64,000 nucleotides of DNA, taken from NCBI GenBank assembly GCA_030650275.1, contig JAUSEK010000011.1, positions 73,890-137,889 of the forward strand. Direction: 5' to 3'. Positions 6,181 to 28,660 of the stretch are shown here, one piece after another. The position numbers and the translations under genes are program-made. Below the pieces are notes generated by a model, which did not search any database, was not told where the DNA came from, and worked only from the letters and a program-made list of their open reading frames with translations. The stretch's first letter is position 1, and every line of letters begins with the position of its first letter. This DNA is from Candidatus Omnitrophota bacterium (lineage in GTDB: Bacteria > Omnitrophota > Gorgyraeia > Zapsychrales > Fredricksoniimonadaceae).

Positions 6181-6200
6181 AGGTCATCGATAACTATCTC

Positions 6201-6229
6201 TTGACAGGGGAAAGAGAGAGTTTATAATT
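6201..6229 (+). promoter_or_regulatory. Consensus sigma70 promoter: TTGACA, 17-bp spacer, TATAAT
   Basis: cTTGACAggggaaagagagagttTATAATtgg. Perfect -35 and -10 hexamers at optimal spacing in one of the few intergenic gaps. Confidence 0.6.
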
Positions 6230-6234
6230 GGGAT

Positions 6235-6249
6235 GTTCAATAATTGAAC
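6235..6249. promoter_or_regulatory. Perfect 7-1-7 palindrome GTTCAATAATTGAAC at the predicted transcription start (candidate operator)
   Basis: Seen directly in the sequence. An identical palindrome recurs at 18020-18034 downstream of a second copy of the promoter. Confidence 0.45.
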
Positions 6250-6262
6250 TTCCTAACCGACT

Positions 6263-6820
6263 ATGCCTAAAGAACTTTTAAACGAACGCGAATTTGAATT
6301 GGTGAATATCGTGGGGGCGCAATTAGGCGTTAACCAGCGTGATATTTCCCGCCAATTGAGGGTTTCCTTAGGAATGACAAACATGCTTTTGCATCGTTTG
6401 ATCGCCAAAGGGTATATCCGCATCCATCAGCTGAATAAGCGCAAAATACAATACCTTTTGACCCCCAAGGGGTTTTCCGAGAAATTGCGCAAATCCATCA
6501 GATATACCATTAAAACCCTCAATTCCATTGAAACCATTAAGGATCATTTAAAAACAATTTTTAAGGAATCGTACCAAGAAGGAGAAAGAAACTTCAATAT
6601 TCTTGGCCATTCTGATCTGGCCTTGTTGGCGGAAATGGCTATCAAGGAAGTTTCCAAGGGAGATCACACCATCGTATTTATTCAAACACTTCAGGAAGCC
6701 AATAAAGATGCGTTGGCCTGTATTTGTAAGGAAGGGTATGAAGACCTACCTCTCCAGGGACCAAAAATGATGAATTTGATCACAGAGTTAGCTCAACGGG
6801 AAACAAGATTCATTCATTAA
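6263..6820 (+). CDS. Winged-helix transcriptional regulator (MarR-like N-terminal HTH) with uncharacterised C-terminal domain
   Basis: N-terminal ~80 aa (LVNIVGAQLGVNQRDISRQLRVSLGMTNMLLHRLIAKGYIRI) has the HTH-wing pattern. First gene after the consensus promoter/palindrome. Confidence 0.5.
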   Translation: MPKELLNEREFELVNIVGAQLGVNQRDISRQLRVSLGMTNMLLHRLIAKGYIRIHQLNKRKIQYLLTPKGFSEKLRKSIRYTIKTLNSIETIKDHLKTIFKESYQEGERNFNILGHSDLALLAEMAIKEVSKGDHTIVFIQTLQEANKDALACICKEGYEDLPLQGPKMMNLITELAQRETRFIH

Positions 6821-6826
6821 CAAAGG

Positions 6827-7888
6827 ATGGTTATGGATACGACTATTTTAGACAACAAAAGTATTTTGATCACCGGGGGAACAGGATCATTCGGTAAGAA
6901 AATGGTCCAGATCGTTTTAAAACAATTCCGTCCCAAGCGATTGGTCGTTTTTTCCAGGGATGAATTAAAACAATTTGAAATGGCGCAAAAATGGAAACCA
7001 TCCGAGCATCCTTGCCTGGAATATGTGCTGGGGGACGTGCGCGACGGCAACCGTTTATGCCGGGTTTTTGAAGGCATTGATTATGTGGTCCACGCGGCGG
7101 CGCTCAAGCAGGTCCCCGCGGCCGAGCGCAATCCCGATGAATATATTAAAACCAATGTCATGGGGGCGATGAACATCATTGAAGCGGCATTGCATTGCCA
7201 TGTCAAGAAAGTGATCGCCCTGTCAACGGACAAGGCGTGCAACCCCATCAACCTTTACGGGGCGACAAAATTATGTTCCGACAAACTGTTCGTGGCTGAA
7301 AACAACGCGGTCCTTCCGTCGAGAACGCAATTTTCAGTCGTGCGTTACGGCAATGTCGTCGGTTCCAGGGGTTCCGTCATCCCATTTTTCAGGGAACGCG
7401 CCAAAACAGGGGTCTTGCCCATCACTGATGATCGCATGACGCGTTTTTGGATCACCCTGGATCAGGCCGTTTATCTGGTGCTGATGTCCCTGCAAAGGTC
7501 CACGGGGGGAGAAATTTTTGTCCCTCGTATTCCGTCCATGAAGATCACTGACCTGGCCACGGCGATCGCCCCGGACTGCAAACAAGAAGTCATTGGCATC
7601 CGCCCCGGAGAAAAGATCCATGAAACATTGATCAGCGAGGATGAGGCCAGGTCTGCCATTGAATTTCAGGATTGTTTTGTGGTCCAATACAATGCCGACC
7701 AACGGGACATTCTTTTGGCCCAGGCAGGAAAACATAAAGGGAAGGCCTGTCCGGAAGGATTCACTTATCGTTCGGATTCCAATACCGAATGGATGACGGT
7801 CAACGAATTGAAAGAAATGATTGAGCGCATTGCGGACGATTATGCCATTGAAAAGTCGCGTTTTTCCATGACGGGCGTTTCCCAATAG
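6827..7888 (+). CDS. pseB: UDP-N-acetylglucosamine 4,6-dehydratase (inverting), PseB/FlaA1 family
   Basis: N-terminus MVMDTTILDNKSILITGGTGSFGKKMVQIVL is near-identical in pattern to H. pylori FlaA1/PseB (MLDNQTILITGGTGSFGK). Length 353 aa. Confidence 0.8.
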   Translation: MVMDTTILDNKSILITGGTGSFGKKMVQIVLKQFRPKRLVVFSRDELKQFEMAQKWKPSEHPCLEYVLGDVRDGNRLCRVFEGIDYVVHAAALKQVPAAERNPDEYIKTNVMGAMNIIEAALHCHVKKVIALSTDKACNPINLYGATKLCSDKLFVAENNAVLPSRTQFSVVRYGNVVGSRGSVIPFFRERAKTGVLPITDDRMTRFWITLDQAVYLVLMSLQRSTGGEIFVPRIPSMKITDLATAIAPDCKQEVIGIRPGEKIHETLISEDEARSAIEFQDCFVVQYNADQRDILLAQAGKHKGKACPEGFTYRSDSNTEWMTVNELKEMIERIADDYAIEKSRFSMTGVSQ

Positions 7889-7898
7889 GTGTAAGGAT

Positions 7899-10061
7899 AT
7901 GGCAAAACAACAAAGAATGATCATCACAGGCGTCAGCGGCCTTTTGGGCAATAATCTCGCCCTTTGCCTGAAGGATGATTACACCATTTTAGGATTGTTC
8001 CATCAGCATCCCTGCGCCATTGAAGGCAATAGGCTTGAGCGGGTAGATTTAACGGACCCGGACCGGGTTAGAACTGTCGTCAGGGAGTTTCAACCAGATG
8101 TTATTATCCATTGCGCGGCCCTTTCGGATATCGAATATTGCGAAAGTCATCAGGATCTGGCCACCAAGGCCAATGTTCTGGCAACACGCCATCTCATCGA
8201 AGCCATTGACCAGACCCCCTGCCAATTTATTTTTATCTCAACAGATTCTATTTATGATGAGACCAAGGGTCCTTTGATCAATGAACAGGGAGCGGTCAAT
8301 CCTTCCAATCATTATTCATGGACAAAGATCGAAGCGGAAAAAGAGGCCTTAAAGCATAAAAATACTCTTATTCTAAGGACCAATATTTTTGGCTGGAATA
8401 TCCAGGAAAAATTCAGTTTAGGCGAGTGGATCATCCACGAACTTTCGCATCAGACCAAGATCAAGGGGTTCAGCGACGCTGAATTTTCATCCATTTATAC
8501 TTTTGAACTGGCAAAGCTCATTGACCGCGCCATCCAAAAAAAGATCCGGGGGGTTTACAATGCCGCCAGCCGCACGCATTTGTCAAAATACCAATTTGCC
8601 CGCGCGATCGCCCGGCGCTTTCAACTGGATGAGACATTGATCGAGCCGATCCCTATCGGTGATTTTGCTTTTAAAGCCAAACGCCGGAAGTTCATGGCTT
8701 TGGACACAGGCAAAATACAGCGGGCTTTGAATGTTCCGTGTCCGACCATTGAAGAATGCATAGAGAAGTTCTATCAGGATCATCAAAAAGGAGTGCCTGC
8801 CAGGATCAAACAAGGCCGGCAGGGGAGCGTTTATCCGCAACTTGATTTTATTCCTTATGGGCGTCAGTGCATTGAAGATGATGATATCCGGGCGGTGACG
8901 GATGTTTTAAAATCAGGGTATCTGACGCAAGGGCCCAAGATCGCGGAATTTGAAGAGGCATTGAAAGCAAAGACCGGCGCTTCATTTGCCGTTGCCGTCA
9001 ATTCCGGAACGTCTGCTTTACACATCGGCTGTCTGGCGGCCGGTATTCATGCCGGCGATGAGGTGATCACCTCGCCCAATTCGTTTGTGGCGTCCGCCAA
9101 TTGCATCGTTTATTGCGCAGGCACGCCGGTTTTTGCCGATATTGATCCCAAGACCTATAATATTTCCCCCCTGGCGCTCGAGCAGAAAATGACAAGGGCC
9201 ACCAGGGCCGTCATCCCTGTTCATTTTGCCGGCCAAAGCTGTGATATGCAGGCGATCCATGATATTGTCCGGCAAAAACAGAAGGAATACGGCCACAAAA
9301 TTTATATCATTGAAGACGCTTCCCATGCGTTGGGGTCCTCTTATAAGGCCAAGAAAGTCGGGTCCGGCGCGTATTCGGACATGACGGTCTTGAGTTTTCA
9401 TCCGGTCAAACACATCACCACGGCCGAAGGGGGCGCTGTCCTGACCAATGACGAGAAATTATGCCATTCCTTAAGACGGTTTCGTTCCCATGGGATCACC
9501 AATGATCCCCTGGAATTGGTCAATGAGGATGAGGCCTTTGAGCCCTCTCACGAGGGGGAACGGATCAAGCGGCCCTGGTACTATGAGCAGCAGGATTTAG
9601 GGTTCAATTACCGGATCACGGACATTCAGTGCGCTTTAGGCATTTCCCAGATCAAGAAATTGGACCGTTTTATAAAGCGCAGAAAAGAGATCGTCGGGCG
9701 TTACAATGCCGCTTTTGAAGGGCTTGATCATGTCACGACACCCTTTGAAGCCGATTTTTGTCAAAGCAATTTTCATCTCTATGTTTTGCTGTTTGATTTT
9801 GGGAAATTGGGGATGTCCCGCGCGCATTTGATGCTTGAGTTGCGCAAAAAGGGCATTCAAACGCAGGTGCATTACATTCCCATCCCCACGCAGCCCTATT
9901 ATCAAAAGAAATTCGGATACCGACGGGGTCAGTATCCCCATGCGGAGAATTATTATCAGCGCTGTTTATCGATCCCTCTTTTCGCCGCGATGAAGGACGA
10001 GGAGGTCGGGAAGGTCATTGAAGCCATTCGTAGTTTAAAACCGGTCCCCGTCCACCCATGA
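7899..10061 (+). CDS. pseC: Fusion protein: N-terminal RmlD-like NAD(P)-dependent 4-ketoreductase domain (~300 aa) plus C-terminal PseC-type DegT aminotransferase (~410 aa)
   Basis: N-terminal domain has GxxGxxG (ITGVSGLLG) and YxxxK (NHYSWTK), with the RmlD substrate-binding pattern STDSIYDE...NP.N.Y. C-terminal domain matches recalled PseC strongly (SHALGSSYKAKKVGSGAYSDMTVLSFHPVKHITTAEGGAVLTND...RSHGI). 720 aa total. Confidence 0.75.
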   Translation: MAKQQRMIITGVSGLLGNNLALCLKDDYTILGLFHQHPCAIEGNRLERVDLTDPDRVRTVVREFQPDVIIHCAALSDIEYCESHQDLATKANVLATRHLIEAIDQTPCQFIFISTDSIYDETKGPLINEQGAVNPSNHYSWTKIEAEKEALKHKNTLILRTNIFGWNIQEKFSLGEWIIHELSHQTKIKGFSDAEFSSIYTFELAKLIDRAIQKKIRGVYNAASRTHLSKYQFARAIARRFQLDETLIEPIPIGDFAFKAKRRKFMALDTGKIQRALNVPCPTIEECIEKFYQDHQKGVPARIKQGRQGSVYPQLDFIPYGRQCIEDDDIRAVTDVLKSGYLTQGPKIAEFEEALKAKTGASFAVAVNSGTSALHIGCLAAGIHAGDEVITSPNSFVASANCIVYCAGTPVFADIDPKTYNISPLALEQKMTRATRAVIPVHFAGQSCDMQAIHDIVRQKQKEYGHKIYIIEDASHALGSSYKAKKVGSGAYSDMTVLSFHPVKHITTAEGGAVLTNDEKLCHSLRRFRSHGITNDPLELVNEDEAFEPSHEGERIKRPWYYEQQDLGFNYRITDIQCALGISQIKKLDRFIKRRKEIVGRYNAAFEGLDHVTTPFEADFCQSNFHLYVLLFDFGKLGMSRAHLMLELRKKGIQTQVHYIPIPTQPYYQKKFGYRRGQYPHAENYYQRCLSIPLFAAMKDEEVGKVIEAIRSLKPVPVHP

Positions 10062-10954
10062 CATTATTTTCGCGTATAGGACTTGGGACGGCACAGTTTG
10101 GCCAGGATTACGGGATCGCCAATAAAGGCGGGAAGATCCCCCGGGAAGTGGTTTTTGATATTCTCAAGTCAGCGGCGGACCGCGGCATTCTTCTTTTAGA
10201 CACGGCCTGTGCCTATGGAGACAGTGAAGCTGTTATCGGAGAATTTATCAAGAAGGGTCCATCCCCGTTTCGGGTGGTGTCAAAATTTTCCCTGGATCCT
10301 TACAAAGAAGGAGGATTAAAGCAGCTTTTACGGCAATCTCTGGCAAAAATGAACACCGCCGGCGTTTATGGATATTTGGCCCACCGTTTGACGGATGTTT
10401 TGAATGATGAGCGCCTTTGGGCGGATATGCTGGAGGTCAAAAGGCAAGGCCTTGTTCAAAAGATCGGGGTTTCCGTCTATTCACCGCGTGAACTGGAAGA
10501 ACTGGACAAGCGCGATATCAAATTTGACCTCGTTCAATTTCCTTACAGTATTTTTGACCGGCGATTTGAAAAATGCATGCACGGATTGAAACAAAAGAAT
10601 ATTGAAATTCACGCGCGGTCCGTCTTTTTGCAAGGCCTTGCATTTATGAAGGCCGATCAACTGCCGGGGCATCTCAAAGAAGCGGGGGTCCCGTTGAGGG
10701 GACTTGCGGAACTTTCGCTCAAGCACGGCATTTCCGTTCAATCGCTGTGTTTAAATTTTGCTTTATTAAATCCTCATATTGATCGGGTCATCATGGGGGT
10801 GGGCGGCTTACGGCATTTTGAAGAAAATTTGAAAGGCCTTGAGGATTTTGATAAGGTCCGCGGTATTTATGATCAACTGCAGGGATTGAGCATCGGCAAT
10901 GAAGATATTCTTCTGCCTAACCGTTGGCCGTTAGCAATGCCGAGCAGGCGATAG
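10058..10954 (+). CDS. Aldo/keto reductase family oxidoreductase
   Basis: IGLGTAQFG...LLDTACAYGDSE motifs of AKR (TIM barrel) enzymes. Start overlaps the upstream stop (ATGA). Confidence 0.7.
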   Translation: MTLFSRIGLGTAQFGQDYGIANKGGKIPREVVFDILKSAADRGILLLDTACAYGDSEAVIGEFIKKGPSPFRVVSKFSLDPYKEGGLKQLLRQSLAKMNTAGVYGYLAHRLTDVLNDERLWADMLEVKRQGLVQKIGVSVYSPRELEELDKRDIKFDLVQFPYSIFDRRFEKCMHGLKQKNIEIHARSVFLQGLAFMKADQLPGHLKEAGVPLRGLAELSLKHGISVQSLCLNFALLNPHIDRVIMGVGGLRHFEENLKGLEDFDKVRGIYDQLQGLSIGNEDILLPNRWPLAMPSRR

Positions 10955-10965
10955 GGAATATTCTT

Positions 10966-12294
10966 ATGTTAAAGACAGAAAAAATAAATAAGGGTGCGGC
11001 ATTGTGGAAAAAAGCAAAAACGTTTATTCCGGGCGGCAATCAACTGCTTTCCAAACGCTCGGAGATGTTTTTGCCTGACCAGTGGCCGGCGTATTACAAG
11101 AAAGCCAGGGGCTGTGAGATTTGGGACCTTGATGACCGTCACTATTACGATATGAGCATCATGGGCATTGGGAGCTCTCCTTTGGGCTACGCCCATGAGG
11201 AAGTCAACGCGGCGGTGCACCAGGCGATCGATGAAGGGAATATGACGACCTTGAATTGCCCCCAGGAGGTTGAGCTTGCCCAAAAGCTGGTGGATCTGCA
11301 TGCCTGGGCGGATATGGCGCGTTTTGCCCGTACCGGAGGGGAGGCCTGCGCCATTGCGGTGCGCATTGCCCGCGCCTTTACTCAAAAAGACAGGATCGCT
11401 TTTTGCGGTTATCATGGCTGGCATGATTGGTATCTGGCGGCTAATCTATCAGACGCAAAGAATCTGGACCAACTCCTTTTGCCGGGCCTTAGTCCGGTCG
11501 GAGTTCCCCAACACTTAAAGGGCAGCGCCATCCCTTTTTATTATGGAGATGCGCAAGCGTTTAAGGAATTGGTCCAACAGCATAAAGCTGATCTGGGCGT
11601 TGTGATCATGGAGGTTGCCAGACACTCCCAGCCGGATATTGATTTCTTGCGTACGATCCGTGAAATGACCCGGGACATGGGGATCGTGCTGATCTACGAC
11701 GAGATCTCCTCCGGATTCCGGTTGAATACCGGAGGGCTCCACCTGTTGTATGACCTTCAGCCGGACATGGCTGTTTTAGGAAAGGCCTTGGGCAATGGAC
11801 ATCCCATTTCCGCGATCTTGGGAAGAGAAAAAGTCATGCAGGCCGCTCAAGAGACATTCATCAGCAGTACTTATTGGACGGAACGCACGGGCTATGCCGC
11901 AGCCCTTGAGGTGTTAAAGATCTATGAACGGGACGCTGTGCCCCAGCAATTGATCAAACAAGGAAATAAGATCCGATTGGGTTTGGAAGGCCTATTCAAG
12001 AAACATCAATTGAATATTGAGATTGAGGGACTCGCATCAAACCCCATTTTTATGATTAAAGAAAAAGACGGACTTCTGATCAAGTCCGTGTATACGCAAG
12101 AAATGTTAAAACGCAGCTTTTTAGCTTCTTCCGTTATCTATGTATCCATAGCGCATACGGACAAGATCATTGATCTATTCTTGGCGAATGCTGATGAAGT
12201 TTTTGGATGCATATCTGCCGCGATCAAAGAGGGTCAATTGGCGTCATTATTGAAGGGGCCTGTTTGTCACAGTGGATTTAAAAGGTTAAATTAA
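10966..12294 (+). CDS. Class III PLP aminotransferase, glutamate-1-semialdehyde 2,1-aminomutase-like
   Basis: FIPGGNQLLSKR...ARGCEIWDLDDRHYYD...DEISSGFR pattern of HemL-like aminotransferases. Confidence 0.7.
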   Translation: MLKTEKINKGAALWKKAKTFIPGGNQLLSKRSEMFLPDQWPAYYKKARGCEIWDLDDRHYYDMSIMGIGSSPLGYAHEEVNAAVHQAIDEGNMTTLNCPQEVELAQKLVDLHAWADMARFARTGGEACAIAVRIARAFTQKDRIAFCGYHGWHDWYLAANLSDAKNLDQLLLPGLSPVGVPQHLKGSAIPFYYGDAQAFKELVQQHKADLGVVIMEVARHSQPDIDFLRTIREMTRDMGIVLIYDEISSGFRLNTGGLHLLYDLQPDMAVLGKALGNGHPISAILGREKVMQAAQETFISSTYWTERTGYAAALEVLKIYERDAVPQQLIKQGNKIRLGLEGLFKKHQLNIEIEGLASNPIFMIKEKDGLLIKSVYTQEMLKRSFLASSVIYVSIAHTDKIIDLFLANADEVFGCISAAIKEGQLASLLKGPVCHSGFKRLN

Positions 12295-13040
12295 TGGTCT
12301 TAGCGATCGTGCAGGCAAGAATGTCAGCATCACGGTTACCGGGCAAGGTCATGAAGAAAATCTTGGGCAAACCGATCATCGGGTATTTGTTGGACCGGCT
12401 TAAAGCATCCAAACGCATTGACAAAATTATTTTGGCCACATCTACCAATCAAGAAAACGATGAACTTGTGTCTTATGTTCAAGGCTTGGGATTTGATGTA
12501 TGGCGGGGGAGCGAAGAAGATGTGTTAGGACGCTTCTTTTTTTCCGCTAAGAAATACGCGGCTGATACGGTTGTCCGTATAACGGGAGATTGCCCGCTGA
12601 TAGACACGCGGATCTGTGACCAATTGATAGATGAATTTACCAAACATCAGGTTGATTATGCTTTTCTGGCACCTAGTTTTGCCGAAGGCCTGGATTGTGA
12701 AGTTCTGAAAGCAACGGCTTTAGAAAAATGCCACCAACATGCCAAATTAGCTTCAGAACGCGAACATGTGACGCCCTATATCAAGAACCATCAGGACCAG
12801 TTTAAGTTATTTTGCATGGATAACCGCGAAGATCATAGCGGTTATCGCGTTGTCGTGGATGAACCGGAAGATCTTGCCATGTTAGAGATCTTATTCAATG
12901 ATTTCTACAAAAAGATACATCCGCAGGGCAGTTTTGATGAAATTAAAGCATACCTGGACCAGCATCCTGAATTGGTCCGGATGAATTCTCATGTGGTCCG
13001 TAATGAGGGATTTATCAGATCGCTTCAGAAGGAAAGGTGA
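12294..13040 (+). CDS. pseF: Nonulosonic acid cytidylyltransferase (CMP-pseudaminate synthetase-like; CTP_transf_3 family)
   Basis: MVLAIVQARMSASRLPGKV...GDCPLID pattern of PseF/SpsF/NeuA-type cytidylyltransferases. Confidence 0.6.
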   Translation: MVLAIVQARMSASRLPGKVMKKILGKPIIGYLLDRLKASKRIDKIILATSTNQENDELVSYVQGLGFDVWRGSEEDVLGRFFFSAKKYAADTVVRITGDCPLIDTRICDQLIDEFTKHQVDYAFLAPSFAEGLDCEVLKATALEKCHQHAKLASEREHVTPYIKNHQDQFKLFCMDNREDHSGYRVVVDEPEDLAMLEILFNDFYKKIHPQGSFDEIKAYLDQHPELVRMNSHVVRNEGFIRSLQKER

Positions 13041-13041
13041 A

Positions 13042-13596
13042 ATGAAAAAGGGAGTCCATCTTAAAACAAAACGCTTGGACCTTAAGACCTTGCGTGTCAG
13101 GCATATTTCGGATCAATACGTCAATGGTTTAAATGATGGACAGGTGAATAAATTTTTATTGGCCCCCAGGCAGAAGAAGCAAACAAGAAAAACGGTCAGG
13201 GATTATGTTGAGGCCAATCTCAATTCACCATCGGGCCTTCTATTCGGATTATTTCATAAGACCACAGGGGATCTGATAGGCACTTTGCGCGTTCATGACA
13301 TCTCCTATTTTCACTATTCTTGTTGTTTAGGGATCTGTTTATTTGACAGGTCCTATTGGGGCAAAGGTTACGCGCAAGAGGCCTTAAAAGAGGCCGTTCG
13401 TTTCGCGTTTAAAGAATTGAGGATGCATTACATTGAAGCGGGCATTTACCAGGGGAATAGGGCATCAGTACAATTGTTCAAAAAATGCGGATTCCGGAAA
13501 GTCGCGACCCATAGGGATAAGTACCGGTATGACGCGTCTTTTAGACCAGTGTTTATTTTTGGCAAGACAAATCCAGATTTTAAGCTTCGGTCATGA
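13042..13596 (+). CDS. GNAT family N-acetyltransferase (RimL-like)
   Basis: GNAT acetyl-CoA-binding motif region (GKGYAQEALKEAVRFAF) in RimL-like arrangement. Start chosen at MKKGVHLK after RBS AGGAAAGG. Confidence 0.6.
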   Translation: MKKGVHLKTKRLDLKTLRVRHISDQYVNGLNDGQVNKFLLAPRQKKQTRKTVRDYVEANLNSPSGLLFGLFHKTTGDLIGTLRVHDISYFHYSCCLGICLFDRSYWGKGYAQEALKEAVRFAFKELRMHYIEAGIYQGNRASVQLFKKCGFRKVATHRDKYRYDASFRPVFIFGKTNPDFKLRS

Positions 13597-13605
13597 GGGA
13601 TTTTT

Positions 13606-15681
13606 GTGTACTTTATTGAAAAATTAACAGTTTATTCGTGGTTGTTTTCTGTTCTTCCCGAGATCCAGCGGCGATCCAAGGCGGATAAAGATCAGGGGAA
13701 TACGCTTTTATATTATGTGGATGCGTCTTGCCAGGGGCTATGGTTGTCCCGATCGATGGCGGCTTTTCTTAAAATTGAGATCAAGCGGCTGGATTTCACT
13801 TTTTTTGACGCTAAAGACAAAAATGGCGATTTTCTTTGGTGGACAGTCATGTTTGAGGATCTTGCGGATCTGCAGAAATATATGTTCCGGTATCCGGCCT
13901 TACAGGAGATCATCCAGAAGAATAAGGCGGATGAGCACCTAAGGTTTTTTCTGATGAGACGTATTTTGTATTTTGATTCAAGCCTGTTTATCTTGATGCA
14001 CATTCTCCTGGTGCTCCGGGTCGCTTCTTTAAAGCGGAAAAAAGAGGAAAGGATCAACGTGTTCCTTTTTTCCTCCCAAAGGCCGTGGCTGTCCCAGGTC
14101 AAGAAATGGGCGGAGGCCCGGAATGTCAATATTATTCCCATGCGCCGGGGGCGCGGTTTTAGCGTCAAAGAGATCATGGCAGGCCCCGGTTTTATCAAAC
14201 ATTCCATCAAACAAGTCCTGTTCGCCTGGATGGGCACGCAAAAGGCCCTTGGAATGGCGGGTCAGGGCGATCAGAGGCATAGTCAGGACCTGTCACCCAA
14301 GATAGCCGTTGAATTTTATGGACATCTTAATCTTGATTCCCCGCAATTGAGCTCGGACCTATTTTTCTGTCAACAGGCAAGCACCTTGAATAAAGATATC
14401 CTGATCTATTTTCAGCATCCGGTGTTCCCGGTCTCGGATCAAGCGTGGGATGAGATCAAGGCGCATGGGATGTCAGCGGTTGTTATGAATCCCAGGGCAA
14501 CCACCACCTCCCGGGTCCCTTTATTCAATTATGTCGGTCAGTTGAGAGAAGAAGACCGCTCCAGGGGGGCAGCCGATGACAAGGGTAAGGATGATATCAG
14601 AAGAGATCTGTCCCGACAGGTCGCAGAATATTATAAACAGAAGGATTATTGGTCCAATTTCTTTGCGCGGCACAACATCAAAATGCATGTGTCGTGGTAT
14701 AAGATCGAATCCAAATATTTTCCGATGGCGGATGCTTTGAATGGCTTGGGAGGGGTATCTGTTATTTATCAAAGGTCTTTTGAAAGCGATTCAAATCCAT
14801 GGATGGTGACGAAAGCGGACGTTGTTTTTGGTTTTTCCAAGTTTGGGGCGCATTTGGGAAAAGACACGGATTCTGTGATCCCTTATTATGTTGTCACGGG
14901 CTATTTGGGAGACCACCGGTATCCAATTCTCAAAAAAGAAGCAAGCGTGATACGCCATGATCTGCAGCGTCATGGGGCCAATAGGATATTGGCCTATTTT
15001 GATGAAAGTTCCGTAGATGATCCGCGATGGAATATAGGGCATCAGGTGACGCAGGAGAATTACGCGTTCTTGCTCAAGAAAATCTTGGACACACCATCGC
15101 TCGGATTGATATTTAAGCCAAAGATATATTCAAATTTACGCAAAAGATTGGGGGAGGATATTGCCGATCTTTTGGATCGCGCCCAAGAGACGGGGAGATG
15201 TTATATATTTAAAGAAGTCGCGTTTCATCTGGGATCGCACCCTCCCGCGATAGCGGCATTGGCATCAGATATCGCCATTCATGGCCATCTTTGCGCGGCA
15301 ACAGCGGGCGTTGAATCAGCTTTGACGGGAACACCGACGCTGATGCTGGACAGGGAAGGTTGTTCCAAGAGCCCGGTCTATCAGTTAGGAGAAGGCCGGG
15401 TTGTTTTTAAAAATTGGGATGATCTCTGGAAAGCATGCCTTGATCACTGGGGCCATTCAGACGGGAGGCCCGGTTTTGGCGATTGGTCGCCGATGTTGGA
15501 TGAGCTGGACCCATTCCGCGATGGCCGGGCGGCCCAACGGATGGGCAGCTATCTTGAATGGATCTCCCAAGGGTTAAAAGCAAAGATCCCCCGCGAAATG
15601 ATTCTGGCGGATGCCGCCCAGCGATACGCCAAGATCTGGGGGCAGGACAAGGTATTGGCCATCAATCATGGCAGGTTATAA
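13606..15681 (+). CDS. Large (691 aa) hypothetical protein; C-terminal region has a GT-B/MurG-like donor-binding motif (possible PseG-type UDP-sugar hydrolase or nonulosonate transferase)
   Basis: C-terminal HGHLCAATAGVESALTGTPTLMLD resembles the G-rich loop/E/GxP motif of MurG/PseG-type GT-B C-domains. The N-terminal ~400 aa has no motif I recognise. It sits where pseG would be expected. Confidence 0.3.
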   Translation: MYFIEKLTVYSWLFSVLPEIQRRSKADKDQGNTLLYYVDASCQGLWLSRSMAAFLKIEIKRLDFTFFDAKDKNGDFLWWTVMFEDLADLQKYMFRYPALQEIIQKNKADEHLRFFLMRRILYFDSSLFILMHILLVLRVASLKRKKEERINVFLFSSQRPWLSQVKKWAEARNVNIIPMRRGRGFSVKEIMAGPGFIKHSIKQVLFAWMGTQKALGMAGQGDQRHSQDLSPKIAVEFYGHLNLDSPQLSSDLFFCQQASTLNKDILIYFQHPVFPVSDQAWDEIKAHGMSAVVMNPRATTTSRVPLFNYVGQLREEDRSRGAADDKGKDDIRRDLSRQVAEYYKQKDYWSNFFARHNIKMHVSWYKIESKYFPMADALNGLGGVSVIYQRSFESDSNPWMVTKADVVFGFSKFGAHLGKDTDSVIPYYVVTGYLGDHRYPILKKEASVIRHDLQRHGANRILAYFDESSVDDPRWNIGHQVTQENYAFLLKKILDTPSLGLIFKPKIYSNLRKRLGEDIADLLDRAQETGRCYIFKEVAFHLGSHPPAIAALASDIAIHGHLCAATAGVESALTGTPTLMLDREGCSKSPVYQLGEGRVVFKNWDDLWKACLDHWGHSDGRPGFGDWSPMLDELDPFRDGRAAQRMGSYLEWISQGLKAKIPREMILADAAQRYAKIWGQDKVLAINHGRL

Positions 15682-15691
15682 AGAAGGTTAA

Positions 15692-16471
15692 ATGATGCCG
15701 GTCCATATCGGAATAAAAGTTTGGGCGCAAAACACCGCTTATATCCCGCACATTCAAAAATTGGGCCAACAGGGCCATTGTGATTTTGTGGAGATCTATG
15801 TCGGTGTCAAGGCAGAACAAGAAGAGGCCAGGTGTTGGCAGGATTTAGACCTGCCCATACGCTTGCACGCGCCCCACAGCTATGGCGGGTTTAATCCCGC
15901 GGACAGTGAGGGGATGGAGTTCAAACAAGAGGCCTTGCGTCGCCTTGAGAAGTTCCGGCGGCTTTTAGGGCCTGCCAGCATTATTTTTCATCCGGGGATC
16001 ATAGGCCCTTTGCAGGAAAGCATCAGGCAATATAAATTATTTAAACAGCAATTCCCGAAAATATTTAAAGCGGCGTTCATTGAGAATAAGCCGTCCATAG
16101 GTCCCAAGCAAGAATCTTGCCGGGGAGATAGCGTTGAAGAAATACGGCCATTGATGCAGGCCATCGGTTTTGGCTTTTGCCTGGACTTTGGCCACGCGGC
16201 TTGTCATGCCGCGTGGGCCAAGAAAGATTGGCGTCAGGTCGTTGAGGATTTTATGCAATTACGCCCGCAATTATTTCACATTTCCGACGGAGACATCCAT
16301 TCTCCCGTAGACAAACACCGTCATTTGGGGGCCGGCAGTTTTCCATTAAAGCAGATGCTGGATTTTTTACCCAAGGATGCGTTCTTAACGCTGGAAACTC
16401 CTCATGATCATGAGGACAACCTGGACGATTTTTCCAAAGACGCGGATTTTATCAGGGGTCTATTAAAATGA
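15692..16471 (+). CDS. Xylose isomerase-like TIM-barrel protein (sugar phosphate isomerase/epimerase family)
   Basis: Length and His/Asp/Glu spacing (FHPG..., DFGHA..., HISDG...) resemble AP-endonuclease-2/xylose isomerase-like TIM barrels. Confidence 0.5.
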   Translation: MMPVHIGIKVWAQNTAYIPHIQKLGQQGHCDFVEIYVGVKAEQEEARCWQDLDLPIRLHAPHSYGGFNPADSEGMEFKQEALRRLEKFRRLLGPASIIFHPGIIGPLQESIRQYKLFKQQFPKIFKAAFIENKPSIGPKQESCRGDSVEEIRPLMQAIGFGFCLDFGHAACHAAWAKKDWRQVVEDFMQLRPQLFHISDGDIHSPVDKHRHLGAGSFPLKQMLDFLPKDAFLTLETPHDHEDNLDDFSKDADFIRGLLK

Positions 16472-17502
16472 TGATCCAGGGCAGGCGGATAGGGGCGGGG
16501 CAGCCCTGTTATGTCATTGCCGAATTATCCGCGAACCACGGCGGAAGCCTTGAGCGCGCTTTGCGCATCGTTCGCGCGGCTAAAGAGGCAGGCGCGGATG
16601 CCATCAAGCTGCAGACATACACGGCAGACACAATGACCCTTGATGTGGACAATGAGTATTTTCGCATCAAAGACGGGTTATGGGGTGGTAAGAATTTATA
16701 TCAATTGTATCAGAAGGCCTCGACGCCATGGGAATGGCACAAGACATTAAAAGAAGAAGCAGATAAGCTGCAGATGCATTGCTTCTCCACCCCTTTTGAC
16801 GAAACAGCGGTGGATTTTCTGGAGTCATTGGGGGTTGCGGCATACAAGATCGCTTCTTTTGAATTGGTGGATGACCTTTTATTGATCAAGGTGGCCCATA
16901 CCCGAAAACCTGTCATTATGTCCACGGGCATGGCCACGTTAGAAGAGATCCGGCATGCCCTGCAGGTGCTCCATGACAACGGAACAAAGGAAATAGCATT
17001 GCTCAAATGCGTCAGCGCCTATCCCGCACCCGCACAGGAGATGCATTTGCGCACAATGTCCGATATGCGCGCACGTTTTAAGTGTCCGGTGGGTTTATCA
17101 GACCATACGTTAGGCCCGACGGTGGCCATTGCTGCCGTTGCCGTGGGCGCCGAATTATTGGAGAAACACATCAAATTAAACCAGGAAGACGATACGCCTG
17201 ACGCCGTATTTTCCATGACCCCTGAGGCCTTTGGAGATATGGTCCAGGCCTTGCGTTTGACCGAGTCCGCTTTAGGGGAAGTGCGCTATCAGAAGACGCA
17301 GCAAGAAGGCAATTCAGTGGTTTTTCGCCGTTCCATTTTTGTTTCCAGAGACATTAAAAAGGGCGAAGTATTCACATCGGAAAATATTAAAGTCATACGC
17401 CCGGGACAGGGCTTAAGTCCGAAGTATTATGCGCAATTGCTGGGCAGGAAGGCCAAACAAGATATTTCCCGGGGAACGCCGTTATCGAGGGCTATGATGT
17501 GA
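16468..17502 (+). CDS. pseI: N-acylneuraminate/pseudaminate synthase (NeuB/PseI/LegI family) with C-terminal SAF domain
   Basis: IAELSANHGGSLERALRIVRAAKEAGADAIKLQTY is the hallmark N-terminus of NeuB-family synthases. 344 aa. Confidence 0.8.
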   Translation: MMIQGRRIGAGQPCYVIAELSANHGGSLERALRIVRAAKEAGADAIKLQTYTADTMTLDVDNEYFRIKDGLWGGKNLYQLYQKASTPWEWHKTLKEEADKLQMHCFSTPFDETAVDFLESLGVAAYKIASFELVDDLLLIKVAHTRKPVIMSTGMATLEEIRHALQVLHDNGTKEIALLKCVSAYPAPAQEMHLRTMSDMRARFKCPVGLSDHTLGPTVAIAAVAVGAELLEKHIKLNQEDDTPDAVFSMTPEAFGDMVQALRLTESALGEVRYQKTQQEGNSVVFRRSIFVSRDIKKGEVFTSENIKVIRPGQGLSPKYYAQLLGRKAKQDISRGTPLSRAMM

Positions 17503-17969
17503 TGGAGCTTTCATTTCGAGACGCGGTGTGGGAAGATGCAGAATTTCTTTTGTCATTGCGCAATGATCCTTCAGTTTGGCCCCACTGTATTCAAGCACGT
17601 CCTGTTGGCCGGAGGGAGCATCTGGAGTGGTTTAAAGACGTATTGCGGCGGGATGATGTAAGAATTTTTATTTTGTTTCAGGACCGTATTTCCATTGGGC
17701 AGGTGCGGTATGATCTTAAGCAGGAGGGGGCTTATGTCAGCATTTCCCTTTGCGCAGATCACCAAGGGCAGGGGTTTGGCGTCCAGGCGCTTAAGTTGAC
17801 GGGTCAAAAGATCTTTTCTCTAGCCAATGTGACGGCTTTAAAAGCCCTTATTAAAGAAAATAATAAGGGATCCTTGCGGTGTTTTAAAAATGCAGGCTTC
17901 TGCCGTATAGACAGAGAAAGAAATGGGAACGAATATTTTATGATCATGGAGCTTCGCAAAGCCAGTTAA
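17499..17969 (+). CDS. pseH: Small GNAT N-acetyltransferase, PseH-like
   Basis: 156 aa GNAT immediately after the synthase gene. Size and position match PseH. Confidence 0.55.
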   Translation: MMELSFRDAVWEDAEFLLSLRNDPSVWPHCIQARPVGRREHLEWFKDVLRRDDVRIFILFQDRISIGQVRYDLKQEGAYVSISLCADHQGQGFGVQALKLTGQKIFSLANVTALKALIKENNKGSLRCFKNAGFCRIDRERNGNEYFMIMELRKAS

Positions 17970-17988
17970 CCCTTCGAAGCATTAATTC

Positions 17989-18016
17989 TTGACAGGACTA
18001 CTAATTCTCTTATAAT
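17989..18016 (+). promoter_or_regulatory. Second sigma70 promoter (TTGACA, 16-17 bp spacer, TATAAT), a copy of the 6201 promoter
   Basis: cTTGACAggactactaattctctTATAATt, followed by the same GTTCAATAATTGAAC palindrome at 18020-18034. Confidence 0.55.
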
Positions 18017-18019
18017 TAT

Positions 18020-18034
18020 GTTCAATAATTGAAC
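18020..18034. promoter_or_regulatory. Second copy of palindromic candidate operator GTTCAATAATTGAAC
   Basis: Identical 15-mer to 6235-6249, in the same position relative to the -10 hexamer. Confidence 0.45.
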
Positions 18035-18085
18035 TTTAAAACCTTAACTCCTTATGCCTAAAGAAGTTTTAAACAAGCTTGAATT

Positions 18086-18715
18086 ATGTCGGAGGTGATC
18101 ATGAACACCCTGGAAGAGATATTTAAGGAAAGCGGCCTGCGGGCCGATTATTTCAGAAAATATGGTGATTATGTCCAAAAATTGATCTCCGAGATCGATG
18201 TTGAGTCACTCAAAAGGGCGGTTGACTGCTTTTTGGAAGCCAGAAAGAATGACAAAACCATTTATTTTGCCGGTAACGGGGGAAGCGCTGCCACCGCCTC
18301 TCATTTTGCTCAGGACTTAAGCGAGGTCGGCCGCAAGATCCGGGGCAAAGGTTTCAGGGCCCAAAGCATCAATGACAATTCTTCTGCCCTGACAGCCATC
18401 AGCAATGATTATGGCTATGAAGACGTGTTCTCACTGCAGATCCAATACAGTTTTAATGCCGGCGATGTTCTGGTGGTCATCTCCGCCAGCGGCAATAGCC
18501 CCAATGTGGTCAAGGCCGTAGAACTGGCGAAGGAAAGAGGAGGAAGGACCGTGGCCCTGGTGGGGTTTGATGGCGGCCGCTTGGCCCAGATCTGCGATCA
18601 CGCGGTCCATATTAAGAGCAAAAAAGGGGAATACGGCCCGGTTGAGGATGTTCATTTGATCTTAAACCATATGATCGTTTCTTACCTGATGATGGAGTTG
18701 AAGAAAGAAAGCTGA
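18086..18715 (+). CDS. gmhA: Sedoheptulose-7-phosphate isomerase (SIS domain, GmhA family)
   Basis: SIS phosphosugar-binding motifs ([20 protein letters not shown]...VISASGNS). Alternative start at 18101 preceded by GGAGG. Confidence 0.75.
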
Positions 18716-19710
18716 TGAAAGAAAAGAAAATTTTAGTGACGGGTGGGGCGGGTTTTATCGGGAGCCATCTGGTTGACCGGCTGGTGGAAGAAGGCCATTC
18801 GGTCACGGTCATTGACAATTTTTCCACGGGCCGCCCCGGCAACCTCGCCCATCAAAAGAACAATGTCCGGATCATTGAAGCCGATATCACCGATTTTGAC
18901 GCCATTTTTCCTTATTTTAGGGAGCAGGAGATCGTCTTTCATTTGGCCGCTTTAGCCGACATTGTGCCTTCCATTGTCAAGCCCCGTGGATATTACGTGT
19001 CGAATGTTTTGGGGACCATGAATGTCGCCGAGGCCGCGCGCCTGGCCAAGGTCCAGAAACTCGTTTATTCCGCCTCGTCCTCCTGTTACGGCATTCCTTC
19101 CCGGGAGTTTTACCCGACCCCGGAAGGCGCTCCCATCCATCCCCAATATCCTTATGCATTGACGAAATATTTAGGGGAGCAGACCCTCCTGCATTGGGCA
19201 GGGGTGTATGGCTTGCCGGTTGTTTCCTTACGGTTGTTCAATGTGTATGGGCCGCGCTCCAGGACTTCAGGGACTTATGGCGCTGTGTTCGGGGTTTTTT
19301 TGGCTCAAAAACTTGATGGCAAACCTTATACCGTTGTCGGCGATGGGGATCAGACGCGCGATTTTATTTTTGTCACGGATGTGGCCCGCGCCATGGCGAC
19401 CGCCGCCTTTTCACCGGTCAAAAATGAAATTTTTAACGTAGGGGCCGGAAATCCCCAGAGCGTTAATACCCTGGTTTCTTTGCTCGGCGGAGAAAAAATC
19501 CACATCCCCAAACGCCCCGGCGAACCGGATTGCACCTGGGCGGATATCCGCAAGATCAAATCTGCTCTTTCCTGGGAGCCGAAAGTATCTTTTGCTCAAG
19601 GCGTGCAGGAGATCCTCAAAGACATTGATTACTGGAAAGACGCGCCGGTATGGACGCCCGCCACGATCGAGAAAGCCACAGAGGACTGGTTTAAATATCT
19701 GGTCAAGTAA
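18715..19710 (+). CDS. NAD-dependent nucleotide-sugar epimerase/dehydratase (extended SDR)
   Basis: [18 protein letters not shown]...YxxxK (YALTK) pattern. Confidence 0.7.
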
Positions 19711-19712
19711 AT

Positions 19713-21245: not shown

Positions 21246-21258
21246 GAAAGGGTATTTT

Positions 21259-23387: not shown

Positions 23388-23395
23388 GGATCATT

Positions 23396-27961: not shown

Positions 27962-27969
27962 AACCAGAC

Positions 27970-28635: not shown

Positions 28636-28660
28636 ACCATTTTTAGGAATAGAGAAAATT

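What the first reader, a model, noticed from the sequence alone, without database searches (positions are those of the whole stretch)
6198..18098. Duplicated consensus promoter, palindromic operator and leader bracket the nonulosonic-acid operon
The segment 6198-6300 is repeated at 17986-18085. It comprises TTGACA-17 bp-TATAAT, the perfect palindrome GTTCAATAATTGAAC at the predicted +1, and the first codons of the winged-helix regulator. The second copy keeps only a 14-codon stub of the regulator ORF ([14 protein letters not shown]) and instead drives gmhA and the ~19-kb tailoring operon. This points to promoter capture by duplication. It also suggests one repressor, probably the wHTH protein at 6263, co-regulates two glycan operons and itself. 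The palindrome overlapping the start site is classic repressor architecture.
Basis: partly seen in the sequence, partly recalled or inferred. Interest (0 to 1): 0.7.

Follow-up and report, generated by a model that had tools for sequence, protein, structure and literature searches.

The report
Conserved promoter-operator cassette, one orphaned copy
The two look-alike 100-bp segments are two copies of a promoter-plus-repressor-site cassette found in front of one regulator gene family across the uncultured phylum Omnitrophota; the second copy has lost its own regulator gene and is probably controlled by the surviving regulator, which is ordinary repressor logic in an unstudied phylum.

Summary
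Both segments carry TTGACA-16 nt-TATAAT (not 17), the 7-1-7 palindrome GTTCAATAATTGAAC, and ATGCCTAAAGAA.TTTTAAAC. These are the only two perfect promoters and the only two exact palindromes in the 64 kb.

It is not a recent duplication. The copies are 72% identical, no closer than either is to the equivalent region in distant Omnitrophota genomes.

The same cassette (perfect promoter, then T-GTTCA-N5-TGAAC-A 0-12 nt later) lies upstream of the orthologous 185-aa winged-helix gene in about 72 of 80 genome loci. It also precedes that gene at 74 of 121 metagenome matches. This is a phylum-wide footprint of an autoregulated repressor that heads sugar-nucleotide operons.

Copy 2 is a relic. The six next-closest gmhA orthologues (79-86% identity) all have cassette, full-length regulator, then gmhA. 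The closest (87-90%) have cassette, decaying stub, then gmhA. So a second regulator paralogue was deleted, rather than a promoter being captured.

In the stub lineages the promoter and operator are invariant while the stub loses its start codon or gains a stop. This fits control in trans by the remaining regulator. Binding, repression and ligand are inferred, not shown.

The result is a new member of a known kind, of moderate interest.

The parts
6201..6228 (+). Copy 1 promoter: TTGACA (6201-6206), 16-nt spacer, TATAAT (6223-6228)
   Evidence: It is a 12/12 consensus match and one of only two in the 64 kb, against 0 expected. The same perfect promoter with a 16-nt spacer lies upstream of orthologous regulator genes. 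50 of the 68 sites within 300 nt upstream of a regulator are 12/12. 56 of the 60 perfect promoters in 1.18 Mb are followed by the palindrome.
6235..6249 (.). Copy 1 operator-like palindrome GTTCAATAATTGAAC. It starts 6 nt after the -10 hexamer and covers the predicted +1 (about 6234-6236).
   Evidence: The family consensus is T-GTTCA-wwaaT-TGAAC-A with symmetric flanks, from 67 sites. GTTCA-N5-TGAAC occurs 82 times in 1.24 Mb against 1.25 expected, and almost always sits just upstream of the regulator gene.
6263..6820 (+). 185-aa winged-helix regulator. It has an N-terminal MarR-like wHTH, a long helix, and a small C-terminal alpha/beta domain. It is the presumed repressor and the first gene of the Pse operon.
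6827..17969 (+). Pseudaminic-acid-type operon. In order: PseB, RmlD-like::PseC fusion, aldo/keto reductase, class-III aminotransferase, CTP_transf_3 cytidylyltransferase, GNAT, unknown 691-aa protein, TIM-barrel protein, PseI, PseH-like GNAT.
   Evidence: PseB scores 489 bits, PseC 506 and PseI 485, all above their NCBIfam cut-offs.
17989..18016 (+). Copy 2 promoter: TTGACA (17989-17994), 16-nt spacer, TATAAT (18011-18016). It starts 19 nt after the stop of the PseH-like gene, and there is no terminator between them.
   Evidence: Both hexamers are invariant in the orthologous cassettes of L149, L156 and L084/L112.
18020..18034 (.). Copy 2 operator-like palindrome GTTCAATAATTGAAC. It starts 3 nt after the -10 hexamer and covers the predicted +1 (about 18022-18024).
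   Evidence: It is invariant in four independent stub lineages, whereas 22 of 51 non-motif positions vary (Fisher p = 1e-5).
18054..18098 (+). Relic of a deleted second regulator gene. It is a 14-codon [17 protein letters not shown]. Codons 1-7 match the family N-terminus MPKEVLN, and the stop TGA is at 18096-18098.
   Evidence: The orthologous stubs differ: ATG has become ATA in L156, L084/L112 read MSK* and carry an 82-nt insertion, and L149 has a different frame and length. The six next-closest gmhA orthologues have a full-length regulator at this position.
18101..35209 (+). gmhA-like/heptose-derived sugar operon. In order: SIS isomerase, SDR, HldE-like, SDR, two DegT aminotransferases, unknown, APH-like kinase, split transketolase, methyltransferase, Zn-ADH, unknown, C-methyltransferase, SDR, carbamoyltransferase, unknown. 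A B12-radical SAM gene (35287-37023) follows after a 78-nt gap.
   Evidence: The Shine-Dalgarno GGAGG lies at 18091-18095.

Best explanation
**What the segments are.** Both segments are copies of one conserved regulatory cassette of the phylum Omnitrophota. The cassette is a maximal-strength sigma-70-type promoter (TTGACA-16 nt-TATAAT). A 15-17-bp palindrome (T)GTTCA-N5-TGAAC(A) follows 0-12 nt later and covers the transcription start.

**Inferred mechanism.** A dimer of the 185-aa winged-helix protein would place one recognition helix on each GTTCA half-site. The half-site centres are 10 bp apart, which is one helical turn. Binding there would block RNA polymerase from opening or leaving the promoter. 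The protein would thus repress its own gene and the sugar-nucleotide operon behind it. An unknown signal would release it, possibly through the C-terminal alpha/beta domain.

**Copy 1** (6201-6249) is the normal arrangement: cassette, regulator, Pse operon.

**Copy 2** (17989-18034) is the cassette of a second regulator paralogue that once headed the gmhA/heptose operon. A deletion of roughly 560-620 bp removed that gene. It left about 10 codons fused close to the gmhA ribosome-binding site.

**Present-day control.** The orphaned operator is now most likely served in trans by the surviving regulator. One protein would then control its own gene, the Pse operon and the heptose operon. Read-through from the Pse operon may also feed the second operon, because no terminator separates them.

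**Shown versus inferred.** Shown here are the sequence anatomy, the phylum-wide co-occurrence of cassette and regulator gene, the ancestral gene order, and purifying selection on the hexamers and the palindrome. Inferred are the protein-DNA binding, the sign of regulation, action in trans, and the nature of the signal.
For: 1. The cassette is real and exceeds chance. It supplies the only two perfect promoters and the only two exact palindromes in the window.
2. Phylogenetic footprint in loci fetched by protein similarity alone:
   - 75 of the 81 sequences scanned (80 genome loci plus the window) contain GTTCA-N5-TGAAC, at 82 sites against 1.25 expected.
   - 78 of the 82 sites have a promoter matching at least 10/12 that ends 0-12 nt upstream.
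   - Nearly all sites lie 18-100 nt before the regulator ATG.
3. The flanks of the palindrome are symmetric: T at -1 in 57/67 sites and A at +15 in 57/67.
4. 56 of the 60 perfect consensus promoters in 1.18 Mb carry the palindrome, and 55 of those 56 have a 16-nt spacer.
5. An unbiased pattern scan of metagenomes gave 121 cassettes.
   - 74 are followed by a gene of the regulator family.
   - Most other Omnitrophota-type matches precede glycan genes.
6. The distance from the -10 to the palindrome varies from 0 to 12 nt, but the palindrome is always downstream of the -10. This fits steric repression, not activation.
7. The recognition-helix region (S35-L36-G37-x-T39-N40-M41-L42...R45) is invariant or nearly so across the aligned homologues (20, 98). 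This matches the invariant half-sites.
8. Deletion origin of copy 2:
   - gmhA orthologues at 79-86% identity (L067, L139, L167, L174, L069, L063) all show cassette, full-length regulator, gmhA. Their palindrome lies 629-690 nt upstream of gmhA.
   - Those at 87-90% (L156, L149, L084) show cassette, stub, gmhA, with the palindrome 63-145 nt upstream.
   - The gmhA-linked regulators form one clade, separate from the window's regulator.
   - Two MAGs carry two full regulators.
9. Continued function of copy 2 without a cis regulator. Across four stub lineages 0 of 29 motif positions vary against 22 of 51 others (p = 1e-5). Meanwhile the stub ORF decays.
10. The relative contig Ga0209824_10000014 holds both a full regulator and an orphan gmhA cassette.
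Against: - No experiment supports any step. Binding, the start sites and repression are all inferred.
- The organism is uncultured.
- The N-terminal wHTH of the AF2 model has only moderate confidence (pLDDT 41-77 for residues 1-80).
- The protein fails the curated cut-offs of Pfam MarR and of TIGR04176.
- In the closest long relative (L203) the regulator has no cassette directly upstream. It is the third gene behind a cassette, so the arrangement is flexible.
- The number of cassettes per whole genome could not be counted.
- The cassettes are too short and too constrained for a tree to prove which regulator clade the stub came from.
Confidence: 0.65

Rival explanations
1. A segment of about 100 bp, holding the promoter, the operator and the first codons of the regulator, was duplicated from 6198-6300. 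It was inserted in front of gmhA, which thereby captured a promoter.
For: The second copy contains the first codons of the regulator ORF, so it did derive from a regulator gene start. Within this window the palindrome and its immediate flanks (ATGTTCAATAATTGAACTT) are identical in both copies.
Against: - The copies are only 72% identical. Copy 2 matches the cassette of L006 slightly better, and copy 1 matches those of L013 and L006 better. The regulators of those genomes are only about 56% identical to the window's.
- All six next-closest gmhA orthologues already have cassette plus a full-length regulator directly upstream. gmhA therefore did not lack this promoter ancestrally.
- The central N5 sequence ATAAT is the commonest in the family. 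Its identity between the copies is thus weak evidence.
Confidence: 0.17
2. The palindrome is not the site of the adjacent winged-helix protein. It would instead be bound by another factor, such as a global regulator. Alternatively it is an intrinsic promoter feature, such as a discriminator or initially transcribed sequence that tunes a very strong promoter.
For: No binding data exist. The palindrome is always coupled to a perfect consensus promoter with a fixed 16-nt spacer. It could therefore be part of one promoter module. Unrelated MarR-type genes of other phyla show a similar GTTCA-N5-TGAAC next to their promoters.
Against: - The site co-occurs with this one gene family in 75 of the 81 sequences scanned (80 genome loci plus the window) and at 74 of 121 unbiased metagenome matches.
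- Its dyad symmetry extends to the flanking T/A pair, which is typical of a dimeric protein site.
- Its distance from the -10 hexamer varies by 12 nt, which argues against an intrinsic promoter element.
- The similar sites in other phyla also precede wHTH regulator genes. That supports the assignment to regulators of this type.
Confidence: 0.1
3. The conserved leader acts at the RNA or translation level. The palindrome would form a hairpin in the mRNA, or the 14-codon stub would be a regulatory leader peptide translationally coupled to gmhA.
For: The stub's stop codon (18096-18098) lies between the gmhA Shine-Dalgarno sequence and its ATG. Coupling is therefore geometrically possible. The palindrome alone can form a small hairpin of -3.8 kcal/mol.
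Against: - Leaders folded from the predicted start sites are no more stable than shuffled sequences (z = -0.32 and +0.57).
- No Rfam family matches either region.
- In 47 of 67 loci the palindrome begins 0-3 nt after the -10 hexamer. Transcription would then start inside it.
- The stub ORF is not conserved. Its start is ATA in L156, it stops at codon 4 and carries an 82-nt insertion in L084/L112, and it has another frame in L149.
Confidence: 0.04
4. The element is a generic dispersed repeat or mobile promoter, similar to a MITE or REP element, with no dedicated regulator.
For: Orphan cassettes occur in front of several different glycan genes: an epimerase, GT2 genes, Wzz-like genes and a CysD-like gene.
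Against: - There is about one cassette per 15-20 kb regulator neighbourhood, and almost always at the regulator gene.
- No terminal repeats or target duplications were seen.
- Only 4 unrelated hits were found in 2.9 million viral contigs.
- Only two copies occur in the 64-kb window.
Confidence: 0.04

Closest known systems
Autoregulated MarR-family repressors, for example E. coli MarR at marO and S. aureus MepR at the mepR/mepA operators (from established knowledge; structures 5h3r and 4l9j appear among the fold matches)
   Same: Both have a dimeric winged-helix protein and a palindromic operator overlapping the -10/+1 region of the regulator's own promoter. In both, the regulator gene is first in the operon it controls. 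One regulator can serve two operators, as MepR does for mepR and mepA.
   Different: - The protein does not reach the Pfam MarR cut-offs.
- Its wHTH sits at the extreme N-terminus. A long helix and an extra alpha/beta domain of about 75 aa follow. Canonical MarR proteins have a central wHTH flanked by dimerisation helices.
- The target genes make nucleotide sugars, not efflux or stress proteins.
- No ligand is known.
NCBIfam TIGR04176, 'MarR family EPS-associated transcriptional regulator'
   Same: It is the best-scoring named family (E = 2.5e-14 over residues 8-102). Like this protein, it is a wHTH regulator associated with surface-polysaccharide loci.
   Different: The score of 53 bits is well below the cut-off of 88. 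That family model is about 105 aa long and lacks the C-terminal domain. No operator is described for it in the papers searched.
TrmB-type sugar-sensing regulators of archaea (from established knowledge; TrmBL2, 5bpi, was a weak Foldseek hit)
   Same: The domain logic is the same: an N-terminal wHTH, a long helix, and a C-terminal domain that could sense a sugar-related ligand. Both control carbohydrate genes.
Orphan operators left after loss of a paralogous regulator, with regulon merging by cross-talk between paralogous repressors (a general concept from comparative genomics of transcription factors)
   Same: The cis-encoded regulator was deleted, the operator was retained under selection, and a paralogue that recognises the same half-sites is present nearby.
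   Different: Here the event can be read directly. About 10 codons of the lost gene remain, and sister lineages keep the intact gene.

Membership tests
MarR family (Pfam PF01047 / PF12802) | Sequence score at or above the Pfam gathering threshold | tested here: not met
   PF01047 scores 20.7 bits against a cut-off of 24.6. PF12802 scores 21.7 against 27. Some homologues do carry precomputed PF01047 or PF13412 hits.
MarR family (Pfam PF01047 / PF12802) | Winged helix-turn-helix fold of the DNA-binding domain | tested here: met
MarR family (Pfam PF01047 / PF12802) | Canonical architecture: about 140-160 aa, with a central wHTH flanked by N- and C-terminal dimerisation helices | tested here: not met
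   The wHTH occupies residues 8-66 at the N-terminus. Helix 73-105 and an alpha/beta domain at 110-184 follow.
MarR family (Pfam PF01047 / PF12802) | Binds a palindromic operator in its own promoter region (autoregulation) | not testable with these tools
   A conserved palindrome next to the -10 hexamer of its own gene is present in 75 of the 81 sequences scanned (80 genome loci plus the window). Binding itself needs EMSA or footprinting.
TIGR04176 MarR_EPS (NCBIfam equivalog) | Score at or above the curated cut-off of 88 bits | tested here: not met
   53.2 bits, E = 2.5e-14, over residues 8-102.
Sigma-70-type promoter | -35 TTGACA and -10 TATAAT hexamers separated by 16-18 nt | tested here: met
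   Both copies match 12/12 with a 16-nt spacer. The same holds at 50 of the 68 sites within 300 nt upstream of an orthologous regulator gene.
Sigma-70-type promoter | Transcription starts 6-8 nt downstream of the -10 hexamer | not testable with these tools
   No transcript data are available. This needs 5'-RACE, dRNA-seq, or metatranscriptome 5' ends.
Pseudaminic acid biosynthesis operon | PseB, PseC and PseI equivalogs above NCBIfam cut-offs | tested here: met
   PseB scores 489 against 407.75, PseC 505.7 against 423.5, and PseI 485.2 against 340.25.
Pseudaminic acid biosynthesis operon | PseH, PseG and PseF present | tested here: inconclusive
   The PseH-like GNAT scores 34.4 against 93.1. 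A CTP_transf_3 cytidylyltransferase is present by Pfam only. No PseG was recognised, and a 691-aa protein has no family.
GmhA / HldE heptose-nucleotide pathway | Equivalog scores above NCBIfam cut-offs | tested here: not met
   GmhA (TIGR00441) scores 124.5 against 209.45. HldE (NF008454) scores 183.6 against 521, and its domain order is reversed. These genes should be called gmhA-like and hldE-like.
Leader peptide / attenuator | A short ORF conserved in frame and start codon among orthologous leaders | tested here: not met
   The start codon is ATA in L156. L084/L112 read MSK* and carry an 82-nt insertion. L149 has 22 codons in another frame.
Dispersed repeat / mobile promoter | Many copies per genome in front of unrelated genes | tested here: inconclusive
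   There are two copies in 64 kb. There is about one copy per 15-20 kb neighbourhood in the 80 genome loci, and only 4 unrelated viral hits. Whole-genome counts were not possible.

The most novel reading that the evidence does not exclude
The 185-aa protein would found a previously undescribed, phylum-wide family of nucleotide-sugar-responsive repressors, built as wHTH, long helix and mini alpha/beta sensor domain. Through one invariant operator, paired with a maximal-strength promoter, it would act as the master switch for surface-glycan synthesis in Omnitrophota (pseudaminic acid, modified heptoses, and glycosyltransferase and chain-length genes). The paralogues would be interchangeable enough for regulons to merge when one paralogue is lost. 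Most Omnitrophota are ultra-small cells with host-dependent traits (PMC10066038). An on/off switch for the cell-surface coat could therefore relate to attachment to hosts.
Probability: 0.3. Interest if true: 0.55.

Novelty: new member of a known kind. Interest (0 to 1): 0.4.

Why it matters
- It provides what appears to be the first inferred promoter-operator-regulator unit for the uncultured phylum Omnitrophota. No paper in the searched library describes it.
- It shows that these bacteria use canonical -35/-10 promoters.
- It defines a 17-bp operator consensus and a small glycan regulon. Both can be tested in a heterologous host without cultivating the organism.
- It is a clean, datable example of regulon merging. 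One regulator paralogue was deleted and its operator survived under selection.
- Mechanistically it is textbook repressor logic. Its value lies in annotation and in evolutionary illustration, not in conceptual novelty.

Tried and rejected
- **RNA element.** Rfam searches of both regions found nothing except a noise hit to a coronavirus UTR. Leader folding gave z-scores near 0.
- **Leader peptide.** Rejected because the stub ORF decays among orthologues.
- **Recent duplication.** Rejected because copy 1 and copy 2 are no more similar than orthologous cassettes from distant genomes.
- **Placing the stub in a regulator clade from cassette similarity.** This was uninformative. The cassettes are short and their similarity is dominated by the constrained motifs.
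- **Further operator-like sites in the window.** One-mismatch matches at 10479 and 51395 lie inside ORFs and are at chance level. The intergenic gaps at 35210-35286 and 37024-37237 contain no palindrome.
- **Phage or mobile origin.** The viral collection gave 4 unrelated hits.
- **Literature.** Four look-ups found no description of this regulator or operator.

Full report
**1. The observation**

- Copy 1 has TTGACA at 6201-6206, TATAAT at 6223-6228, GTTCAATAATTGAAC at 6235-6249 and an ATG at 6263.
- Copy 2 has the same elements at 17989-17994, 18011-18016, 18020-18034 and 18054.

Three corrections are needed.
- The -35/-10 spacer is 16 nt, not 17.
- The palindrome has 7-nt arms around a single central base.
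- The similarity is a mosaic. The hexamers, the palindrome with its immediate flanks, and ATGCCTAAAGAA.TTTTAAAC are conserved. The promoter spacer and the leader have diverged and carry indels. Overall identity is 72%.

The pattern is far beyond chance. A perfect TTGACA-N15-19-TATAAT occurs only at these two places in 64 kb, against 0 in 100 shuffles. GTTCA-N5-TGAAC also occurs only there.

The stub ORF 18054-18098 reads [14 protein letters not shown]. Its TGA lies between the GGAGG (18091-18095) and the ATG (18101) of the gmhA-like gene. Orthologues of that gene start MNTLEEIF.

**2. The genes**

The ORF 6263-6820 encodes a 185-aa winged-helix protein.
- It matches Pfam MarR and HTH_24 only below their cut-offs.
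- It scores 53 bits against NCBIfam TIGR04176 (MarR_EPS), whose cut-off is 88.

A pseudaminic-acid-type operon follows it.
- PseB, a RmlD-like::PseC fusion and PseI are all above NCBIfam cut-offs.
- The operon also holds a cytidylyltransferase, two GNATs, an aldo/keto reductase, a class-III aminotransferase and two unknowns.
- It ends at 17969.

Copy 2 starts 19 nt later, and no terminator lies in between. An uninterrupted + strand array follows, from 18101 to 35209.
- It encodes an SIS isomerase, SDRs, an HldE-like enzyme, two DegT aminotransferases, a kinase, a split transketolase, methyltransferases and a carbamoyltransferase.
- A B12-radical SAM gene lies after a 78-nt gap.

The gmhA and hldE labels are approximate, because both proteins are below their equivalog cut-offs.

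**3. Where it comes from, and the key comparative result**

The regulator has 572 homologues of nearly constant length (about 185-190 aa). Essentially all named ones come from Candidatus Omnitrophota/Omnitrophica MAGs. Eighty genomic loci were fetched by protein similarity alone.

In these loci plus the window (1.24 Mb), GTTCA-N5-TGAAC occurs 82 times against 1.25 expected, in 75 of the 81 sequences scanned.
- 78 of the 82 sites have a sigma-70-type promoter matching at least 10/12 that ends 0-12 nt upstream.
- Almost all sites lie 18-100 nt before the regulator's ATG.
- At 50 of the 68 sites within 300 nt upstream of a regulator, the promoter is a perfect 12/12.

Conversely, 56 of the 60 perfect consensus promoters in those 1.18 Mb are followed by the exact palindrome. 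Two more are followed by a one-mismatch version. 55 of the 56 have a 16-nt spacer.

The site consensus is T-GTTCA-wwaaT-TGAAC-A with symmetric flanks: T in 57/67 and A in 57/67.

- 74 are followed within 900 nt by a gene of this family.
- Most other Omnitrophota-type matches precede glycan genes or are orthologues of copy 2.
- About 16 belong to MarR-type genes of other phyla, and a few are chance matches.

The viral collection gave 4 unrelated hits.

The '100-bp repeat' is therefore two instances of a phylum-wide promoter-operator cassette tied to one regulator family. It is neither a generic repeat nor a private duplication of this genome.

**4. How it most likely works**

The palindrome always lies downstream of the -10 hexamer. 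The gap varies from 0 to 12 nt. The site therefore covers roughly -3 to +25 relative to the start and is not phase-locked to the promoter. That is the geometry of a steric repressor, not of an activator.

The half-site centres are 10 bp apart, which suits a winged-helix dimer.

The predicted recognition-helix region is invariant or nearly so across the aligned homologues (20, 98). This matches the invariant half-sites.

A maximal-strength promoter held in check by its own product is the classic design of an autoregulated repressor at the head of its operon.

In other genomes the regulator is followed directly by:
- PseB-like genes (33 cases);
- the 18715-like SDR of the heptose operon (16 cases);
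- gmhA (5 cases);
- other sugar-nucleotide genes.

The family is thus a dedicated glycan-operon regulator.

The AF2 model (mean pLDDT 75) shows a wHTH at residues 8-66, a long helix at 73-105, and a confident small alpha/beta domain at 110-184. Fold searches match the wHTH to MarR proteins. The C-terminal domain matches only generic Rossmann-like folds. The signal therefore remains unknown.

RNA-level explanations were tested and rejected.
- There is no Rfam match.
- The leaders show no excess folding stability.
- In most loci transcription would start inside the palindrome.

**5. What copy 2 is**

The two window copies are no more similar to each other (72%, score 110) than to cassettes of distant MAGs. 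L006 and L013 reach 71-75%, although their regulators are only about 56% identical to the window's. Nothing points to a recent intragenomic duplication.

Ranking gmhA orthologues by identity to the window protein gives a clean picture.

| gmhA identity | Loci | Arrangement | Palindrome to gmhA |
|---|---|---|---|
| 87-90% | L156, L149, L084 | cassette, stub, gmhA; no regulator | 63-145 nt |
| 79-86% | L067, L139, L167, L174, L069, L063 | cassette, full-length regulator, gmhA | 629-690 nt |

In the second group gmhA starts 36-107 nt after the regulator's stop.

In a neighbour-joining tree these gmhA-linked regulators form one clade. That clade also includes L028 and L191, whose operons contain gmhA further downstream. 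The window's regulator lies elsewhere in the tree. Two MAGs in the sample carry two full regulators, each with its own cassette.

The parsimonious history is as follows. The ancestor had a second regulator paralogue heading the gmhA operon. A deletion of roughly 560-620 bp removed it in the lineage of the window. About 10 codons were left fused near the gmhA ribosome-binding site.

The stub is a decaying relic, not a leader peptide.
- Its ATG has become ATA in L156.
- L084/L112 have a stop at codon 4 and an 82-nt insertion.
- L149 reads on in another frame.

In contrast, the -35, the -10 and the 17 bp TGTTCAATAATTGAACT are invariant in all four stub lineages, while 22 of 51 other positions vary (Fisher p = 1e-5). 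The upstream context also differs among these lineages, so the cassette belongs to the gmhA module.

Selection on an operator with no regulator encoded beside it implies a regulator acting in trans. The obvious candidate is the surviving paralogue, the 6263 protein in the window. In the relative contig Ga0209824_10000014, a full regulator and an orphan gmhA cassette also coexist.

It replaces 'promoter capture by duplication' with 'orphaned operator after loss of a regulator paralogue'.

**6. Comparison with known systems**

Functionally this works like autoregulated MarR-family repressors such as MarR or MepR. It has a palindromic operator over the -10/+1 region, the regulator gene comes first in the operon, and one regulator can serve two operators.

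Membership of the MarR family is not established.
- The Pfam and TIGR04176 cut-offs are not met.
- The architecture is not canonical: N-terminal wHTH, long helix and extra alpha/beta domain. In outline it resembles TrmB-type sugar regulators, but without any sequence support.

Four look-ups of the paper library, including the main Omnitrophota genomics paper, found no description of this regulator or operator.

**7. Verdict**

- The regulatory interpretation is supported by strong comparative evidence but no experiment.
- The evolutionary interpretation is revised.

This is a new member of a known kind. It is a useful, testable regulon for an uncultured phylum and a neat example of regulon merging, but it is mechanistically conventional. 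Interest is 0.4. Confidence in the overall explanation is about 0.65.

The weakest links are the actual protein-DNA binding, trans-action at copy 2, the unknown ligand, and the uncounted number of cassettes per whole genome.

Noticed in passing
window 37139-37237: The 215-nt gap after the B12-radical SAM gene contains a short ORF fragment, MATLHPRKQIIEVLKEAETGAKTAEIFRKHGVSY. From memory it looks like the N-terminus of an IS3-type transposase OrfA. It may mark an old insertion at an operon boundary.
   Followed up: no
Upstream of the regulator genes in L002-L081; window 6250-6262 and 18035-18053: Regulator genes of this family mostly lack a Shine-Dalgarno motif: 7 of 76, against about 42% of downstream ORFs. 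In 23 of 76 the 8 nt before the ATG are pyrimidine-rich, as at both window copies. In L002, L004 and L007 the palindrome ends 3 nt before the ATG, which implies nearly leaderless mRNAs.
   Followed up: partly
L084 and L112 (orthologues of copy 2): An 82-nt insertion rich in inverted repeats sits inside the stub, between the cassette and gmhA. It may be a small mobile hairpin element.
   Followed up: no
L091, L095, L121, L124, L157 (human gut), L176, L179; L086, L171, L190, L193: MarR-type genes of other, apparently Firmicutes-like, organisms carry the same architecture. TTGACA-16-TATAAT is followed by GTTCACAAAGTGAAC or GTTCACATTGTGAAC directly upstream of the regulator ORF. The proteins are not detectably related to the Omnitrophota family by HMM.
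   Followed up: partly
L203 7690-10045 (contig Ga0209824_10000014): In the closest long relative the cassette (GTTCACAAATTGAAC at 7736) precedes two SDR epimerase genes, and the regulator (79% identical to the window's) is the third gene. No palindrome lies directly upstream of the regulator. The position of the regulator within its operon is therefore flexible.
   Followed up: partly
L114, L117, L119, L170, L197; L108, L125; L154; L145: Orphan cassettes without an adjacent regulator precede other glycan-related genes. These are family-2 glycosyltransferases (operator GTTCATATCTTGAAC), Wzz-like chain-length proteins, a CysD-like protein and an SDR epimerase. The protein labels for the Wzz-like and CysD-like genes are by eye from N-terminal sequence. 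This hints at a wider glycan regulon.
   Followed up: partly
window 19713-21245: In the HldE-like bifunctional protein the adenylyltransferase domain is N-terminal (residues 18-159) and the PfkB kinase domain is C-terminal (190-490). From memory, this is the reverse of E. coli HldE. The protein scores well below the equivalog cut-off.
   Followed up: no
window 7899-10061; L202-L204 11638-13812: PseC is fused to an N-terminal RmlD-like reductase domain, giving a 720-aa protein. The fusion is conserved in the relatives.
   Followed up: no
window 5026-6180; at least 13 of loci L006-L079: Homologues of the 384-aa protein with no Pfam family, encoded just upstream of copy 1, recur 1.2-4.6 kb upstream of the regulator in many Omnitrophota loci. 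This is a conserved neighbour of unknown function.
   Followed up: no
window 13606-15681 and 33992-35209: Two large ORFs inside the two operons, of 691 aa and 405 aa, have no Pfam match. The 691-aa protein sits where a PseG-type activity would be expected.
   Followed up: no
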